A stretch of 64,000 nt of DNA from Bacteroidota bacterium (GTDB lineage: Bacteria; Bacteroidota; Bacteroidia; Flavobacteriales; Flavobacteriaceae), in NCBI GenBank assembly GCA_048498055.1, contig JBEHYS010000014.1, positions 10,624 to 74,623 on the forward strand, written 5' to 3'. Under the pieces are notes generated by a model that did not search any database, was not told where the DNA came from, and was given only the letters and a program-made list of their open reading frames with translations. This document shows positions 30,354-60,017 of the stretch, piece after piece; positions within the stretch are counted from its first letter, which is position 1, and every line of letters begins with the position of its first letter. Made by a program: the position numbers and the translations under genes.

Positions 30354-30437
30354 GGAGAGGTGCCGGAGTGGTAACGGAGCAGATTGCTAATCTGTCGGCG
30401 TGCAAACGTCGCCAGGGTTCGAGTCCCTGTCTCTCCG
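30354..30437 (+). tRNA. tRNA-Ser(GCT)
   Basis: GGAGAGG acceptor, anticodon arm GCAGA-TTGCTAA-TCTGT, long variable arm, GGTTCGAGTCC T arm. Confidence 0.96.
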
Positions 30438-30449
30438 CTGTTTTTTTTT

Positions 30450-30524
30450 CGGGGTGTAGCGTAGCCCGGTCATCGCGCCTGGTTTGGGACCAGGAGGTCG
30501 CAGGTTCGAATCCTGCCACCCCGA
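30450..30524 (+). tRNA. tRNA-Pro(TGG)
   Basis: CGGGGTG/CACCCCG acceptor, anticodon arm CCTGG-TTTGGGA-CCAGG, GGTTCGAATCC. Confidence 0.97.
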
Positions 30525-30530
30525 CAGACG

Positions 30531-30561
30531 AATCCCGACTGCATTGCAGTCGGGATTTTTT
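30531..30561 (+). terminator. Terminator after tRNA-Pro
   Basis: Perfect 13-bp inverted repeat AATCCCGACTGCA-T-TGCAGTCGGGATT followed by a T run. Confidence 0.8.
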
Positions 30562-30780
30562 ATTTGAGAAAAAATGCCAAGCTCGCTTGAGCATTTTTGA
30601 CGAAAATAAAAAATCCGTCAACGCTGCGAAGCAGCGTTGGATTTGCCTGAATCAATCCCAAACTCAGGATCACGCGCTTGCGCGTAATCCTGAAAATCTT
30701 CAATGTTTACTTGAATTTCTCGAGATAGTTCAAATTAAAACGACAGGGGAAATCTAAAGACAATCCTTCCGGTAAGATCC

Positions 30781-30865
30781 GCCCGCGTTAGGGATTGTAG
30801 CGGAAAGCCCGGAGCGCAGCGAGGACTTGCAGCGAAAAGCCCGGCCCGCAGGGCAACGCCCAAAA
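30781..30865 (-). repeat. Dispersed structured repeat, copy 1 (same ends as 44108-44223; central module shared with 63184-63277)
   Basis: GCCCGCGTTAGGGAT...AAAGCCCGGCC...GGCAACGCCCAAAA; strand assigned by match to the 63.2-kb copy. Confidence 0.85.
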
Positions 30866-30906
30866 GCAAAAAATCCAAGACAATAAAGATTATCTTGGAT
30901 TTGGAA

Positions 30907-30923
30907 GTGATCGCACTAGGATT
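30907..30923 (-). repeat. 17-bp duplicate of the tRNA-Arg 3' end (att-like direct repeat)
   Basis: GTGATCGCACTAGGATT at 30907-30923 and at 31022-31038. Confidence 0.9.
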
Positions 30924-31022
30924 TGCTACGATATCCTTACAGCGCTCCGCGCTGAAAAACAAAAAACCGAAAATAAATCCGAAAGCGAGCTTTCATTTAT
31001 TTTCCGGTTTTTGTTTTATTCG

Positions 31023-31096
<74 letters not shown>

Positions 31097-55298: not shown

Positions 55299-58211
55299 AT
55301 GAAATACTGCATTGCCATATTACTTCTGATCAGCCAGTTTGCCGCCGCGCAATTCCGGAAAATCGACGCGCCCTACGACCGGATGAAAGAATCGGTGTGG
55401 GTCGATAGCATCTACAACCACATGAGCTTCGACGAGCGCGTCGGGCAGCTTTTCATGATTTCGGCATTTTCCAACAAGGATTCGCTGCATGTCAAGCAGG
55501 TCCAGGAACTCATCAAATGCTATCATGTCGGCGGATTGCTGTTCCTTCAGGGCGGCCCGGGTCGTCAGGCGGTACTGACAAATCGGTACCAACAAATGTC
55601 GAAAGTGCCTTTGTTCATCGGTATCGATGCTGAATGGGGTTTGGCAATGCGGCTCGATTCGGTGAACCGTTTTCCGTGGAATATGACTTTGGGCGCGATC
55701 CAGGATTTGAGCCTGATCCGGAAAGTCGGCGTCGAATATGGGAAACAGGCCAGCCGGATGGGCGTCCAGTTCGATTTTGCACCGGTGCTCGACATCAATA
55801 CCAATCCGAAAAACCCGATTATCGGGAACCGTTCGTTCGGCGAAGACAAAGTCAACGTCACCGATCGCGCGATGGAACTCATGAAAGGCATCCAGAGCCA
55901 GGGCGTTTTTGCGACCGGAAAGCATTTTCCGGGGCACGGCGATACGGCCGTTGATTCGCATGTGACTTTGCCGATCGTGACTTTTTCGAAAGAACGGCTC
56001 GAAAGCACCGAATTCTACCCATACCGCAGGCTGTTCAACGAAGGACTGGCTTCGGTTATGGTCGCGCACCTCAATGTGCCGAGCCTTGAGCCGCGGCAGG
56101 GTTATCCCTCATCGATTTCGTACAATGTCGTGACGAACGTATTGCAGAAAGAACTCGGCTTTACCGGGCTGATTTTCACCGATGCACTCAACATGAAAGG
56201 CGCGAGCAATTTCAAACAGCCCGGCGAAATCGATCTCGAAGCTTTTCTGGCCGGTAACGATATTTTGCTGTTTCCCGAAAATGTTCCGGTGGCGCTGGAG
56301 AAATTCTGCGTCGCCTATCAGGATTCCATCATTTCGGAAGAAAGACTGGCACAGTCGGTCAAGAAAATCCTGAAATACAAGTACCGGGCAGGGCTTGACA
56401 TGTACCGTCCGATCAAGATGGAAAATCTCAACAGCGATCTCAATACCGTAGCCAACGACGCGTTCCAGTATGAATTGTACGAAAATGCGATTACTGTCAT
56501 CAAGAACGAAGATGAAATCCTGCCGGTCCAAAATCTCGAAAAGGAAAAAATCGCTTACGTCAAGCTTGGCGACGACAAGCACACGCCGTTTCTGACGACA
56601 TTGCAGAAATATACCGAAGTCACCGAAATCAACGAAGAAAACCTCGACAGCCTGCAGGTCAGGCTCAAACCGTATACGACGGTCATCGTCGGGTTTCACA
56701 AAGCCGACGGCGCCTGGAAAAACCACAATTTCAAACCCGAGGAAATCGCAAAGCTCGATTCGATCTCGAAATACAACAAAGTCATTCTCGACGTCTTCGC
56801 CAAGCCATATTCGCTGCTGCAGGTCGATAATTTCGTCAACATCAAAGGCATCGTCATTTCCTATCAGAATACCGACGTGTCGCAGGTGGTTTCAGCCGAA
56901 ATGATTTTCGGTGCGGTCGAATCGAAAGGCAAACTGCCGGTGACGATCAATGCGATGTTTCCGGTCAATTTCGGGCTGCAGACCAAGAAAATCAACCGGC
57001 TCGGATTTACCGCGCCTGAAAACGTCGGGATGGATTCGAAAATCCTCAACCGCATCGACGATTATGCGAAAAAGGCCATCGACCGGAAAATGACGCCGGG
57101 AATGCAGATTCTCGTGGCACGGAAAGGAAAAGTGATTTACCAGAAATCGTTCGGGACGCATTCGTATGACAACACGATGAAAGTTTCCAATTCCGATATC
57201 TACGACGTGGCTTCGATCACGAAAATGGTTTCGACCCTGCCGAATGTGATGCAGCTTTACGACCAGGGCAAAGTCACTATGGAAACCCGGCTCGGCGATA
57301 TGCTCCCGGTTTTTGCCGACAGCGACAAGAAAAACATCCATTTCAGGGATTTGCTTTCGCATTATGCGCGGCTGCAGGCCTGGATTCCGTTTTACAAATC
57401 GACCCTCGACAGCGCCGGACTGCCAAGCGAAAAGTATTACAGCAAAGTGCTCGATGCGCAGCATTCCAGGCAGGTTGCCGAAAATCTTTTCATCCGCAAT
57501 GATTACCACGATACGATTATGAAAGCCATTGCCGACAGCAAGCTTTTACCGAAAAAAGAGTACAAGTACAGCGATTTCACGTTCATCATCTTAAAGGATT
57601 ATCTCGAAAAGACGACCGGAAAAACCCTTGACAGCCTGAGCTACGACAACTTTTACAAATCGCTGGGGATGAACAACACGCTTTACAATCCGCTCATGAA
57701 ATACGACGCGAGCTCGATTCCGCCGACCGAAAACGACAATTATTTCCGCCATCAGACCATTCAGGGTTATGTTCACGATATGGAAGCGGCGATGGAAGGC
57801 GGAGTTGGCGGCCATGCGGGGATTTTTTCCAATACCATGGACATCGCCAAGATGATGCAGATGTACCTGCAAAAGGGAAATTACGGCAACCGCCAATATT
57901 TTTCGGCGCAAACCTTCGACGATTTCAATACGTGCTGGTTCTGCAAGGAAGGCAACCGGCGCGGGCTCGGTTTTGACAAGCCGCAATTGCCCGGACAGCC
58001 CGGCCCGACCTGCGGCTGCGTTTCGGCTTCGAGTTTCGGGCATACCGGATTCACGGGCGGAATCGCCTGGGCTGATCCCGAAACGGAAATCGTTTACGTA
58101 TTTTTATCCAACCGCACCTATCCGGACAGCAATGCGCCCAATACGCTTTCGAAGGAAAACATCCGCGAAGACATCCAGAAGGTCATCCAACAGGCCATCA
58201 TTAAGCCATGA
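55299..58211 (+). CDS. GH3 beta-N-acetylglucosaminidase fused to a C-terminal beta-lactamase-like serine hydrolase
   Basis: GH3 motifs KHFPGHG and FTDALNM; SxxK (ASITK), YSD and GHTGFTG in the C-terminal domain. Confidence 0.92.
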   Translation: MKYCIAILLLISQFAAAQFRKIDAPYDRMKESVWVDSIYNHMSFDERVGQLFMISAFSNKDSLHVKQVQELIKCYHVGGLLFLQGGPGRQAVLTNRYQQMSKVPLFIGIDAEWGLAMRLDSVNRFPWNMTLGAIQDLSLIRKVGVEYGKQASRMGVQFDFAPVLDINTNPKNPIIGNRSFGEDKVNVTDRAMELMKGIQSQGVFATGKHFPGHGDTAVDSHVTLPIVTFSKERLESTEFYPYRRLFNEGLASVMVAHLNVPSLEPRQGYPSSISYNVVTNVLQKELGFTGLIFTDALNMKGASNFKQPGEIDLEAFLAGNDILLFPENVPVALEKFCVAYQDSIISEERLAQSVKKILKYKYRAGLDMYRPIKMENLNSDLNTVANDAFQYELYENAITVIKNEDEILPVQNLEKEKIAYVKLGDDKHTPFLTTLQKYTEVTEINEENLDSLQVRLKPYTTVIVGFHKADGAWKNHNFKPEEIAKLDSISKYNKVILDVFAKPYSLLQVDNFVNIKGIVISYQNTDVSQVVSAEMIFGAVESKGKLPVTINAMFPVNFGLQTKKINRLGFTAPENVGMDSKILNRIDDYAKKAIDRKMTPGMQILVARKGKVIYQKSFGTHSYDNTMKVSNSDIYDVASITKMVSTLPNVMQLYDQGKVTMETRLGDMLPVFADSDKKNIHFRDLLSHYARLQAWIPFYKSTLDSAGLPSEKYYSKVLDAQHSRQVAENLFIRNDYHDTIMKAIADSKLLPKKEYKYSDFTFIILKDYLEKTTGKTLDSLSYDNFYKSLGMNNTLYNPLMKYDASSIPPTENDNYFRHQTIQGYVHDMEAAMEGGVGGHAGIFSNTMDIAKMMQMYLQKGNYGNRQYFSAQTFDDFNTCWFCKEGNRRGLGFDKPQLPGQPGPTCGCVSASSFGHTGFTGGIAWADPETEIVYVFLSNRTYPDSNAPNTLSKENIREDIQKVIQQAIIKP

Positions 58212-58729
58212 GAAAAATTATCCTGCTTTTTATTGTTTCGAATTTTGCCATCGGCTGCTCGGCCGACCAGGACAATCCGAATGGATTGCTTTATGATTCG
58301 CACCTGAAAGTTGACGACGCGCCGTTCGTCCCGACGAAATATACCGATGAAAACCCGACATGGAACATCACGACGACATTTCAGGGTGAGGACAATTTCG
58401 ATCCGGGATATGTAATCCGGACTTTCAGTCTTGTTTCGCGACACGACGAGCAAATGTATACCGATGAGATTTTTTTGGAAATCAAATATTCCTCGTCACA
58501 GGGAAAAATCAACGGCACGTATGATATTGCAGGAAATGAGGAAGTGGATGCGTATTATCGGAGCAGCACGGCCTTTTTTCATTTTATTTCGGGCTCGGTG
58601 ACAGTAGCCGACCTCGGCCACAACCGGTATTCGCTGAAATTCAACGATGTGCTTGCGCTGGATAATTATGACGGCGCGACCAAAACGGTCAGCGGCAACT
58701 TCAAAGGGACATTTTATCCGCTGAATTGA
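58208..58729 (+). CDS. Hypothetical lipoprotein
   Basis: Lipobox FAIGC followed by acidic residues; ATGA overlap with the upstream gene. Confidence 0.75.
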   Translation: MRKIILLFIVSNFAIGCSADQDNPNGLLYDSHLKVDDAPFVPTKYTDENPTWNITTTFQGEDNFDPGYVIRTFSLVSRHDEQMYTDEIFLEIKYSSSQGKINGTYDIAGNEEVDAYYRSSTAFFHFISGSVTVADLGHNRYSLKFNDVLALDNYDGATKTVSGNFKGTFYPLN

Positions 58730-58777
58730 TTTCAAATCCGGCAATTTTCGTTAAATTCGTAAGCCTAAACAATATCC

Positions 58778-58837
58778 GTGACACGAGCGAAGCGACTGCA
58801 TGAGACTTTTGAAAAACAAATATTAAATTTCGAATGA
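58778..58837 (+). CDS. Putative leader peptide 1 (MTRAKRLHETFEKQILNFE)
   Basis: GTG start; its TGA overlaps the ATG of the next small ORF (ATGA). Translation not demonstrated. Confidence 0.3.
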   Translation: MTRAKRLHETFEKQILNFE

Positions 58838-58871
58838 CACGAGCGCAGCGACTGCATGAGACCTTTGAAAA
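58779..58871 (+). repeat. Two 37-bp direct repeats (35/37 identical), period 56 bp
   Basis: TGACACGAGCG(A/C)AGCGACTGCATGAGAC(T/C)TTTGAAAA at 58779-58815 and 58835-58871. Confidence 0.95.
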
Positions 58872-58890
58872 CAATAACCAAAACGAATGA
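58834..58890 (+). CDS. Putative leader peptide 2 (MTRAQRLHETFENNNQNE)
   Basis: ATG start; its TGA overlaps the bshA ATG (ATGA at 58887-58890). Translation not demonstrated. Confidence 0.35.
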   Translation: MTRAQRLHETFENNNQNE

Positions 58891-60017
58891 AAATTGCCAT
58901 AGTCTGTTATCCGACCTTCGGCGGAAGCGGCGTCGTCGCGACCGAACTCGGTCTTGAACTCGCGCACCGCGGCCACGAAATCCACTTCATCACTTACAGC
59001 CAGCCCGTTCGCCTGGCGCTTTTGAACCCGAATGTACATTACCACGAGGTCAACGTGCCCGAATATCCGCTGTTCCATTATCAGCCTTACGAATTGGCGC
59101 TGTCGAGCAAACTCGTCGACATGGTCAAGCTGCACAACATCGAATTATTGCATGTACATTACGCCATCCCGCATGCCTATGCCGGTTACATGGCCAAGCA
59201 GATGCTCAAGACCGAAGGCATCGACCTGCCGATGGTAACCACGCTTCACGGTACCGATATTACGCTCGTCGGGAATCATCCGGTGTATAAACCCGCGGTA
59301 ACGTTCAGTATCAATGAGTCGGACATCGTCACCTCGGTATCGCAAAGCCTGAAGGACGAAACCTACCGGTTTTTCAACATTACCAAAGACATCCACGTGA
59401 TCCCGAATTTCATCGAACTCGATAAAAATTTCAAGGATCCCAATATTCCGTGCCGCCGTTCCGTTATAGCAAAGGAAAACGAACGGATTGTGACGCACAT
59501 CAGTAATTTCAGGAAAGTCAAGCGCATTCCCGATGTGATCAAGACGTTCCACAAAATCCAGCAGGAAATCCCGGCGCGGCTCATGATGGTTGGCGACGGA
59601 CCGGAAAAGGAAAAAGCCGAAAGCCTGTGCCGCGAACTGGGAATCCAGAATAAGGTTATCTTTTTCGGCAACAGCAATGAAATCGACATGATTTTGAGCT
59701 ATACCGATTTGTTCATGCTGCCTTCGGAAACCGAAAGCTTCGGATTGGCCGCCCTTGAGGCGATGGCTTGGGGCGTTCCGGTGATTTCGACCAACGGCGG
59801 CGGTTTGCCCGAGGTAAATTTTGACGGCGTTTCGGGATATCTCAGCAATGTTGGTGATGTCGATGATATGGCGCAGAACGCTCTGAAAATCCTCAGTGAC
59901 GAAGTCGTTCTTGCCAAGTTTAAGCAAAACGCGCTGGGTGTAGCCAGGCAATTCGACATTATGAACATTCTGCCGTTGTATGAAGCTTTATATCAACAAG
60001 CGATAGATAAAAAATGA
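58887..60017 (+). CDS. bshA: N-acetyl-alpha-D-glucosaminyl L-malate synthase (GT4)
   Basis: Motifs CYPTFGGSGVVATELG, HYAIPHA, TTLHGTDITLVG and ESFGLAALEAM. Confidence 0.93.
   Translation: MKIAIVCYPTFGGSGVVATELGLELAHRGHEIHFITYSQPVRLALLNPNVHYHEVNVPEYPLFHYQPYELALSSKLVDMVKLHNIELLHVHYAIPHAYAGYMAKQMLKTEGIDLPMVTTLHGTDITLVGNHPVYKPAVTFSINESDIVTSVSQSLKDETYRFFNITKDIHVIPNFIELDKNFKDPNIPCRRSVIAKENERIVTHISNFRKVKRIPDVIKTFHKIQQEIPARLMMVGDGPEKEKAESLCRELGIQNKVIFFGNSNEIDMILSYTDLFMLPSETESFGLAALEAMAWGVPVISTNGGGLPEVNFDGVSGYLSNVGDVDDMAQNALKILSDEVVLAKFKQNALGVARQFDIMNILPLYEALYQQAIDKK

What the first reader, a model, noticed from the sequence alone, without database searches (positions are those of the whole stretch)
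58778..58890. Two tandem paralogous leader ORFs chained by ATGA overlaps into bshA
Seen: the 37-bp direct repeats encode MTRAKRLHETFE-KQILNFE* (GTG 58778) and MTRAQRLHETFE-NNNQNE* (ATG 58834). ORF1's TGA overlaps ORF2's ATG, and ORF2's TGA overlaps the bshA ATG. The spacers have diverged in sequence but differ by exactly 3 nt, and both end in CGAA-TGA, so frame and coupling are kept twice. Both are too short for the ORF track. Known: ATGA overlaps mediate translational coupling, and BshA starts bacillithiol-type thiol synthesis. Inference: a translational relay or leader-peptide control of bshA (the His/Arg-containing MTRAxRLHETFE might sense stress or stall ribosomes), or a small coding repeat element that inserts at starts.
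Basis: partly seen in the sequence, partly recalled or inferred. Interest (0 to 1): 0.7.

Follow-up and report, generated by a model that had tools for sequence, protein, structure and literature searches.

The report
Start-codon leader repeat family in Flavobacterium
The two "leader ORFs" before bshA are real, but they are two copies of a roughly 55-base repeat that sits directly in front of the start codons of several unrelated housekeeping genes in some Flavobacterium lineages; its 30-base core is conserved as nucleotides rather than as a peptide, much like the MIRU repeats of mycobacteria.

Summary
There are two direct repeats, two short ORFs (GTG 58778, ATG 58834), two ATGA overlaps, and a genuine bshA at 58887.

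The bshA-specific leader-peptide or relay reading does not hold.
- The repeats are a 56-nt and a 53-nt unit of a dispersed family. Each unit is an NTG, a near-invariant GC-rich core (ATGACACGAGCG-N-AGCGACTGCATGAGACC) and a variable A-rich tail ending in CGA.
- A unit always lies on the gene's strand, between the gene's own promoter and short leader and its ATG.
- In metagenomes the same core precedes purK, rpiB, cinA, wecB, an ABC-transporter gene and others, singly or in tandem arrays.
- Close BshA relatives (89-91% identity) carry 0 or 3 units; 80 other Flavobacterium species carry none.
- The ATGA overlap, the frame and the peptide are not conserved. Codon 5 is K, Q, E or stop; one lineage is frameshifted; stop positions vary.
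- The conserved block ends sharply at the NTG and at +29.
- There is no Rfam match, no significant RNA structure and no terminal inverted repeats.

Best reading: a MIRU-like, variable-copy leader repeat. It is probably transcribed and its short ORFs probably translated, which would make it tolerated. Its core is most likely recognised as nucleic acid by an unknown factor. The mechanism is inferred, not shown.

The parts
58752..58759 (+). Predicted Bacteroidetes sigma-A -7 box (TAAATTCG) of the native bshA promoter. If the box occupies -12..-5, the inferred transcription start is near 58764.
   Evidence: The block TAAATTCG/TAATTTCG is conserved about 16-25 nt before the bshA ATG in most of 80 orthologs and in L112 and L115. 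Box position and consensus are from PMC6847099 and PMC9723704. The transcription start was not measured.
58760..58777 (+). Native bshA leader (TAAGCCTAAACAATATCC). It is collinear with the leader that runs straight into the bshA ATG in relatives without the repeat.
   Evidence: L112-L114 read TAAATTCG-TAACCAAATAACAACT-ATGAAAATC. The conserved block of the repeat begins exactly at 58778.
58778..58833 (+). Repeat unit 1 (56 nt): GTG start, core and A-rich tail ending in CGA.
   Evidence: The tail type AACAAATATTAAAYTWCGA recurs at an ABC-transporter gene (L093) and in soil-metagenome contigs.
58778..58807 (+). Core 1, GTGACACGAGCG-A-AGCGACTGCATGAGACT. The variable position N is at 58790.
   Evidence: In the position profile over 18 unique units, positions 0 to +29 are 88-100% conserved except N (72%), while the flanks are at most 66%.
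58778..58837 (+). Short ORF 1 (19 codons, GTG start). Its TGA overlaps the ATG of unit 2.
58834..58886 (+). Repeat unit 2 (53 nt): ATG, core and tail AAAACAATAACCAAAACGA.
58834..58863 (+). Core 2, ATGACACGAGCG-C-AGCGACTGCATGAGACC. N is at 58846.
58834..58890 (+). Short ORF 2 (18 codons). Its TGA overlaps the bshA ATG.
58800..58826 (+). Second, out-of-frame short ORF that starts at the internal ATG of core 1 (MRLLKNKY). The equivalent ATG of core 2 is at 58856.
   Evidence: In four other loci this frame, not the first, ends in the ATGA overlap with the gene.
58887..60017 (+). bshA (N-acetyl-alpha-D-glucosaminyl L-malate synthase), the host gene of the insertion.
   Evidence: TIGR03999, 566.5 bits.

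Best explanation
The two repeats are tandem units of a dispersed, orientation-specific repeat family. It is found in a subset of mostly uncultured soil and freshwater Flavobacterium lineages.

Each unit of about 53-57 nt is a start codon (NTG), then a near-invariant unstructured GC-rich core, then a variable A-rich tail ending in CGA. Units lie exactly between a gene's own short leader and its ATG. The unit's NTG therefore takes over the gene's original initiation site.

Shown:
- The family exists and has sharp boundaries.
- It has several host genes.
- Its copy number varies: 0, 2 or 3 units at bshA, and at least 4 in another array.
- Copies can decay.
- The peptide, the frame and the ATGA overlap are not conserved.

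Inferred:
- The units are transcribed as the 5' leader.
- Ribosomes that load at the native site translate one of two very short ORFs. They end in the tail, at an ATGA overlap, or a few codons into the next ORF.
- The gene's ATG is then reached by termination-reinitiation or by fresh initiation on the A-rich tail. The insertion is thus tolerated, as proposed for mycobacterial MIRUs, and copy number could tune expression.
- The core's nucleotide-level invariance across species and GC contents points to recognition of the RNA or DNA sequence by an unknown factor. That factor could be regulatory or could be needed for the repeat's propagation.

The repeat is not a bshA-specific sensor.
For: Family and host genes
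- A scan of metagenome contigs for the core gave 17 loci and 24 copies. Wherever the downstream sequence is held (L082 ends inside its array), the copy lies on the strand of a gene and 23-29 nt before its ATG.
- Host genes: purK (10 loci, PurK only 73-80% identical between species), rpiB (2), cinA (2), wecB and an ABC-transporter gene.
- Two loci come from one 366-kb contig.

Tandem arrays and copy number
- L082 has at least 4 units and L090 has 2.
- At bshA, L109-L111 (BshA 91%) have 3 units. L112-L115 and L001 (89-90%) have none, and the window has 2.

Insertion point
- The native leader in L112 is collinear with the window up to GTG 58778.
- None of 80 bshA orthologs has CGA before the ATG, whereas every unit ends in CGA or CGAA.

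Nucleotide, not peptide, conservation
- The conserved block is sharp, at 0..+29.
- N is A, C, G or T, giving K, Q, E or stop.
- L104 and L107 carry a 2-nt deletion that gives MTSEAIAGA....
- L099 has lost the ATG and decayed.
- Genome GC ranges from 36 to 48% with the core unchanged.
- Tails cluster by host gene while the cores stay identical.

Start-like behaviour
- The first codon is ATG, GTG or TTG in every intact unit.
- In 14 of the 15 loci where a -7 box is recognisable, the first unit starts 18-36 nt after it; in L089 the gap is 59 nt.

RNA presence
- Metatranscriptome contigs contain units contiguous with the purK start. This is weak evidence.

Analogue
- MIRUs 'insert themselves at start codons' with a coupled ORF (PMC12548453).
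Against: - No direct evidence of transcription start, translation or any effect on expression. The RNA evidence comes from assembled metatranscriptome contigs that may contain DNA.
- The intact copies were found with an exact-match pattern, so core invariance is partly built in. Only positions 0-4 and 29 and the unbiased purK and bshA look-ups are free of this bias.
- No trans factor, no mobility mechanism, no terminal inverted repeats and no clear target duplication were found.
- The host-gene set is small and has no obvious common theme.
- No complete genome could be surveyed.
- My scan of representative genomes used a wrongly constrained pattern, so the distribution in cultured species is unknown.
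Confidence: 0.6

Rival explanations
1. A purely selfish or neutral mini-repeat. The units spread to gene starts and amplify or shrink by slippage, and they have no host function. The identical cores reflect recent spread or transfer rather than selection.
For: - Presence or absence differs between close relatives at both bshA and purK.
- There are identical tandem units (L082; L109 units 2-3).
- Copies decay (L099; L104 and L107; L109 unit 1).
- The same tail type occurs at different genes (window unit 1 and L093).
- The closest known analogue, the MIRU, is viewed this way.
Against: - Copies at orthologous genes in species with 73-85% protein identity keep an identical core while the adjoining tail and leader have diverged.
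- Uniform neutral decay would not spare the core in at least 14 resident copies.
- Genome GC of 36-48% does not affect the core.
- No mobility features were found: no terminal inverted repeats and no hairpins.
Confidence: 0.2
2. A DNA operator. The 30-bp core would be the binding site of a transcription factor that sits just downstream of the promoter and represses a regulon (purK, rpiB, cinA, wecB, bshA and others). Extra units would give stronger repression.
For: - Conservation is at the nucleotide level and there is no RNA structure.
- In most loci the core lies about +15 to +45 from the predicted transcription start.
- The core contains two ATGA(C/G)AC half-repeats 22 bp apart (read directly from the sequence).
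- The same genes carry it in several species.
Against: - Strict co-orientation with the gene, retention of an NTG at the native start position, the A-rich initiation-like tail and exact abutment on the gene's ATG are not expected of an operator.
- The host genes have no clear common pathway.
- Close relatives lack it entirely at the same genes.
Confidence: 0.12
3. The short ORFs encode a functional or ribosome-stalling leader peptide (MTRAxRLHETFE) that relays or senses translation specifically for bshA under thiol, oxidative or metal stress.
For: - Both window ORFs are intact, overlap the next start by ATGA, and keep an NTG start.
- After the frameshift in L104 and L107, a T-to-G change removes the TGA that would otherwise close the ORF. 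This hints that an open uORF matters.
- From memory, untested: the frame contains CGA-GCG and CGA-CUG codon pairs, which are slow in yeast.
Against: - The repeat is not bshA-specific and is absent from 80 bshA orthologs.
- Substitutions are not mainly synonymous. There is a TAG at codon 5 in L083, and the L104/L107 peptide is entirely different.
- The peptide after residue 10 varies in sequence and length.
- The ATGA overlap holds in 5 of 17 units for this frame and in none of the three bshA units of L109.
- There is no attenuator structure or terminator.
Confidence: 0.06

Closest known systems
Mycobacterial interspersed repetitive units (MIRUs; Supply et al. 1997, as summarised in PMC12548453)
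   Same: - Units of about 50-100 bp, dispersed and in variable-number tandem arrays.
- Co-oriented with the flanking gene and placed at start codons.
- Each carries a small ORF that can end in a 4-nt overlap with the gene's start, which is thought to make the insertion harmless through translational coupling.
- The mobility mechanism is unknown.
   Different: - A different phylum (Bacteroidota, which does not use Shine-Dalgarno pairing). No sequence relationship is expected and none was tested.
- The units sit behind the promoter of first or only genes rather than mainly between genes of an operon.
- The -4 overlap is kept in only a minority of units.
- The 30-nt core is far more uniform than the rest of the unit.
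Bacterial upstream ORFs / leader-peptide control (attenuation, arrest peptides, coupling uORFs)
   Same: A short ORF lies in the 5' leader immediately upstream of, or overlapping, the main start. The first NTG sits where the gene's own start was.
   Different: - No conserved peptide and no run of regulatory codons.
- No terminator or antiterminator.
- Variable stop position and frame.
- The same cassette occurs on unrelated genes.
REP/BIME, MITE and Correia-type small intergenic repeats
   Same: Small, multicopy, non-autonomous intergenic repeats that can alter expression of neighbouring genes.
   Different: - No palindrome, hairpin or terminal inverted repeats.
- Strict orientation and strict position at the start codon.
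- Low copy density: one locus in this 64-kb window, and two loci found on a 366-kb contig.
Structured cis-regulatory RNAs of Flavobacteria (riboswitches, Flavo-1 and similar)
   Same: A conserved sequence in the 5' leaders of metabolic genes, sometimes in tandem.
   Different: No Rfam match even at E<=10. Folding energy is no better than shuffles (z = -0.9 to +1.5). The invariance gives no covariation to test.

Membership tests
MIRU-like start-codon interspersed repeats | Short unit (about 40-100 bp) in tandem arrays whose copy number varies between strains or lineages | tested here: met
   Units are 52-58 nt. At bshA there are 0 units (L001, L112-L115), 2 (window, L081) or 3 (L109-L111). L082 has at least 4 and L090 has 2.
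MIRU-like start-codon interspersed repeats | Dispersed at several loci of one genome, co-oriented with the adjacent gene | tested here: met
   L083 (rpiB) and L094 (wecB) lie on one 366-kb contig. Every copy whose downstream gene is held lies on that gene's strand.
MIRU-like start-codon interspersed repeats | Inserted at the start codon, with an internal ORF coupled to the gene by a 4-nt overlap | tested here: inconclusive
   Position at the start codon is met. The overlap is kept by 5 of 17 units in the first frame and by 4 more in the second frame. The others stop 7-19 nt upstream or run on past the next start codon, 26 nt out of frame in most and, in L086, in frame with cinA.
MIRU-like start-codon interspersed repeats | Sequence homology to mycobacterial MIRU classes | not tested
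   No MIRU sequences were compared. None is expected across phyla, so the resemblance is organisational only.
Leader-peptide attenuation / arrest-peptide uORF | Peptide sequence under purifying selection (synonymous changes exceed non-synonymous) | tested here: not met
   Variation falls on first and second codon positions (K/Q/E/stop, L to M, T to I). No third-position change was seen in intact cores. The L104/L107 lineage is frameshifted. Caveat: intact copies were ascertained by exact pattern.
Leader-peptide attenuation / arrest-peptide uORF | Alternative RNA structures or a terminator between leader ORF and gene | tested here: not met
   No terminator-like sites. Folds are not better than shuffles.
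Translational coupling by ATGA overlap (as a conserved design) | Stop/start overlap preserved in homologous copies | tested here: not met
   Unit spacing modulo 3 takes all three values. The overlap is absent in the L109 bshA array.
MITE / REP | Terminal inverted repeats or a palindromic stem-loop | tested here: not met
   No inverted repeat within a unit and no stable hairpin.
Known RNA families (Rfam 15) | Covariance-model match | tested here: not met
   No relevant hit at E<=10 in 58300-59300. Only tRNAs were found in the whole window.
BshA (host gene) | Equivalog-level match to TIGR03999 | tested here: met
   566.5 bits against a cutoff of 273.7, full length.

The most novel reading that the evidence does not exclude
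The invariant, unstructured 30-nt core is the recognition sequence of an as yet unknown trans-acting factor in Flavobacterium. One possibility is an RNA-level regulator that controls a set of housekeeping genes at the initiation step, in a phylum that lacks Shine-Dalgarno recognition. The other is a machinery that copies the cassette precisely onto start codons. Either would be a new system, not merely a tolerated repeat.
Probability: 0.3. Interest if true: 0.8.

Novelty: new variant of a known kind. Interest (0 to 1): 0.6.

Why it matters
- **Wider occurrence of start-codon repeats.** Repeat units that settle exactly on start codons, so far described for mycobacteria, would also exist in Bacteroidota. 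Translation initiation works differently there: there is no Shine-Dalgarno use and leaders are A-rich.
- **A test bed for reinitiation.** The family offers a natural system for studying termination-reinitiation without Shine-Dalgarno help.
- **An open question.** A 30-nt core that stays identical across species with 36-48% GC, while everything around it drifts, calls for a binding partner.
- **Practical uses.** Copy number differs between close lineages, so the units could serve as strain-typing markers. They also mislead gene callers and readers into proposing gene-specific leader peptides.

Tried and rejected
1. **Wrongly constrained genome scan.** I scanned representative genomes with a codon-degenerate pattern that required a TTYGAR tail and got 0 hits. 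The tail later proved not to be conserved.
2. **Viral contigs.** 0 hits for the core.
3. **Structured RNA or riboswitch.** No Rfam hit and no significant fold on either strand.
4. **Pairing of the core with rRNA.** The best complementarity to E. coli 16S (helix 34 region) scored no better than 16% of shuffles; for 23S the figure was 80%. Rejected. A first attempt timed out.
5. **Long-range pairing of 58740-58752 with the bshA start.** The upstream arm lies in the promoter, ahead of the predicted transcription start. It cannot be in the mRNA.
6. **Promoter inside unit 1's tail (TAAATTTC).** The spacing and consensus are poor, and other tails lack it.
7. **F. longum (L011).** It has a single 17-codon uORF with an ATGA overlap at bshA. 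Similarity to unit 2 is marginal (p about 0.03, and other A-rich leaders score almost as high). I did not count it as a family member.
9. **Literature.** No paper contains the sequence or the peptide. Keyword searches found nothing on such a Flavobacterium repeat.
10. **Isolates or RNA-seq of a carrier.** The PurK proteins of carriers are at most 85% identical to any named isolate in the hit list. Only metatranscriptome contigs were available.

Full report
**1. What is in the window**

- GTG 58778 opens a 19-codon ORF, MTRAKRLHETFEKQILNFE. Its TGA (58835-58837) overlaps ATG 58834.
- That ATG opens an 18-codon ORF, MTRAQRLHETFENNNQNE. Its TGA overlaps the ATG of the next gene at 58887.
- The repeat finder reports one 37-nt family, 58779-58815 and 58835-58871, 95% identical and 56 nt apart.
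- A mismatch-tolerant search finds only these two copies in 64 kb, and none in shuffles.
- The downstream gene is BshA at equivalog level (TIGR03999, 566 bits).
- The same sequence occurs in a MAG contig (L081) and in a soil-metagenome contig (X1).

**2. It is an insertion between the promoter and the start codon**

I fetched 80 Flavobacterium bshA loci, with BshA 82-90% identical.
- Nearly all have a conserved block, TAAATTCG or TAATTTCG, about 16-25 nt before the ATG. This is a near-match to the Bacteroidetes sigma-A -7 box TAnnTTTG.
- That box occupies -12..-5 relative to the transcription start, in organisms whose median 5' UTR is 24 nt (PMC6847099, PMC9723704).
- In the window the box is at 58752-58759. 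The roughly 110 nt holding both repeats lie between it and bshA.
- None of the 80 loci contains the repeat (nhmmer profile). None has CGA before its ATG.
- In L112-L114 (BshA 90%) the leader TAAATTCG-TAACCAAATAACAACT runs straight into the ATG. It is collinear with the window's TAAATTCG-TAAGCCTAAACAATATCC up to GTG 58778.
- So the first unit's start codon sits where the gene's own start used to be.

**3. The repeat is a dispersed family**

Laying Logan contigs of soil and rhizosphere metagenomes on the region showed the core in many other contexts. It was preceded by other -7 boxes and followed by other gene starts.

An exact scan of JGI metagenome contigs with ACGAGCGNAGCGACTGCATGAGAC returned 17 loci and 24 copies.
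- Every copy with held downstream sequence is on the strand of, and 23-29 nt before, a gene's ATG.
- Host genes: purK in ten loci, rpiB in two, cinA in two, wecB in one (two units) and an ABC-transporter gene in one. Identities were confirmed with NCBIfam.
- L083 (rpiB) and L094 (wecB) come from the same 366-kb contig, so one genome carries several loci.
- L082 ends in at least four units of 55 nt. L090, from the same sample, begins with two units and then purK.
- Carrier genomes range from 36 to 48% GC.

**4. Anatomy and what is conserved**

I aligned 18 unique units on the NTG.
- Positions 0 to +29 are 88-100% identical, except position 12 (72%; A, C, G or T).
- Position -1 and upstream are at most 66% identical. 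Position +30 is 44%.
- Positions 0-4 and 29 were not part of the search pattern. They are still 88-100% conserved, so the sharp boundaries are not an artefact.
- The first codon is ATG in most units, GTG in window unit 1 and TTG in L089.
- After GAGACC comes an A-rich variable tail that always ends in CGA or CGAA. This puts C or G, never the favoured A, at -3 of the following start: C in 12 of 14 and G in 2.
- In 14 of the 15 loci where a -7 box is visible, the first unit begins 18-36 nt after it. That predicts a 14-32 nt leader. In L089 the gap is 59 nt.

**5. Not a peptide, not a fixed relay**

- Position 12 is the first base of codon 5 and yields K, Q, E or a TAG stop (L083 encodes MTRA*).
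- Other changes are L to M (L082) and T to I (L089).
- No third codon position varies in intact cores. The caveat is that these copies were found by exact match.
- Unit length modulo 3 takes all three values.
- The first-frame ORF ends in the ATGA overlap in 5 of 17 unique units: both window units, L085, L093 and L097.
- Elsewhere it ends 7-41 nt before the next ATG, or 26 nt past it.
- A second ORF starts at the internal ATG of the core (MRPLK...). It ends in the overlap in four further loci and is in frame with cinA in L086.
- With two start-capable frames, two of the three length classes allow an overlap by chance. The observed 13 of 17 in those classes is unremarkable.

**6. Unbiased look-ups**

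PurK homologs were traced to their contigs.
- L103, L106 and L108 have no unit and a short native leader.
- L101 has a different insert.
- L099 has a decayed copy: ATG changed to ACG, several substitutions and an indel.
- L104 and L107 have a diverged copy with a 2-nt deletion, which changes the peptide to MTSEAIAGA.... In this lineage a T-to-G change removes the TGA that the new frame would otherwise hit.
- On a PurK tree, intact carriers (73-80% identical to each other) are scattered among non-carriers.

BshA homologs were traced in the same way.
- L109-L111 (91%) have three units. The first is diverged (ATGGCACTAGCGCAGCGACTGCACGAGTCC). The next two are identical 54-nt units whose ORFs stop 9 nt before the next ATG.
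- L112-L115 (89-90%) have none.
- Copy number at this one gene is therefore 0, 2 or 3 among close lineages.

**7. Selection or recency**

- Tails cluster by host gene: purK tails are 76-92% alike, the rpiB pair 85% and the cinA pair 75%. Between genes the figures are mostly lower, 58-84%.
- This suggests that copies at a given gene are orthologous across species. Their tails and leaders have drifted while the core has not.
- Because intact copies were ascertained by pattern, this is suggestive rather than proven.
- The unbiased sample shows that decay does occur.
- I conclude that the core is constrained as a nucleotide sequence in many lineages. I keep a neutral or selfish repeat as a serious rival.

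**8. What it is not**

- It has no Rfam family.
- Folding is no better than shuffles on either strand.
- It has no terminator and no inverted repeats inside a unit.
- It has no significant complementarity to rRNA.
- It has no hits in viral contigs.
- No paper contains the sequence.

**9. How it probably works (inferred)**

- The unit's NTG inherits the gene's native initiation region, so ribosomes should start there.
- Both other frames of the core hit a TGA that overlaps an ATG (ATGAC at the start, GCATGAG at +22).
- The tail carries stops and is A-rich, as Flavobacterium initiation regions are (PMC6847099).
- Ribosomes can thus be handed on, or load afresh, at the next ATG. This would explain why insertion at a housekeeping gene's start is tolerated.
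- It is the explanation given for mycobacterial MIRUs, which 'insert themselves at start codons' with a coupled ORF (PMC12548453).
- Metatranscriptome contigs that contain units joined to the purK start fit transcription but are weak evidence.
- Why the 30-nt core is held constant is unexplained. The leading idea is a sequence-specific RNA or DNA partner.

**10. Verdict**

The bshA-specific leader-peptide or relay reading is not supported. The family appears undescribed. I file it as a new variant of the MIRU kind in a different phylum.

Noticed in passing
L062:2883-3000 and L019:1530-1621: Two other Flavobacterium species carry a different insert of about 80 nt before bshA. It is hairpin-rich and contains a perfect Shine-Dalgarno-like AGAGGAGGAAG. 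In L062 it is flanked by a 35-nt duplication of the bshA 5' end, which creates an upstream ORF that stops 1 nt before the real ATG. This is a second, unrelated element using the same site. It has no Rfam match.
   Followed up: partly
L011:2930-3003 (F. longum): A single 17-codon uORF (MTSTHLSVMRLNTENNQ) overlaps the bshA ATG by ATGA. Its similarity to window unit 2 is only marginal. It may be a decayed relative or an independent event.
   Followed up: partly
L001:520-600: The closest GTDB relative (BshA 90%) has no repeat. It does have a 10-nt inverted repeat, TTGACTGCGT-N21-ACGCAGTCAA, bracketing the bshA -7 box, which looks like an operator.
   Followed up: no
L086:9100-9148; L093 (minus strand) about 245-290; X4 contigs: The leaders upstream of the repeat at cinA and at the ABC-transporter gene contain runs of 8-nt periodic short repeats (CCTCAAGC CTCGGAAC CTTAGTGC CTCAGCAC...; ACTCAGCT ACTCAGGC...; AAAGCCTA AAGCCTAT...).
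   Followed up: no
window 58740-58752 and 58886-58898: A 13-nt inverted repeat (12/13) links the bshA promoter block (GGCAATTTTCGTT) and the bshA start (AATGAAAATTGCC). The upstream arm precedes the predicted transcription start, so it cannot pair in the mRNA. Similar A/T-rich complementarity is seen in orthologs.
   Followed up: partly
window 58208-58211 and 60014-60017: The flanking genes also overlap by ATGA: the GH3/beta-lactamase-like gene with the 173-aa lipoprotein gene, and bshA with the PrcB-like gene. The 173-aa gene between the GH3 gene and bshA is absent in L001 and in L109-L115.
   Followed up: partly
L101:3866-3943 (minus strand): A strong Flavo-1 RNA match (76.5 bits) lies downstream of purE in a purK locus that lacks the repeat.
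   Followed up: no
L101:1940-2000 / L102: The purK leader of this species has a different 46-nt leader with a GGCCATAAGGCC hairpin instead of the repeat.
   Followed up: no
window 30354-31096: Three tRNA genes lie in a cluster. These are the only Rfam gathering-level hits in the window.
   Followed up: no
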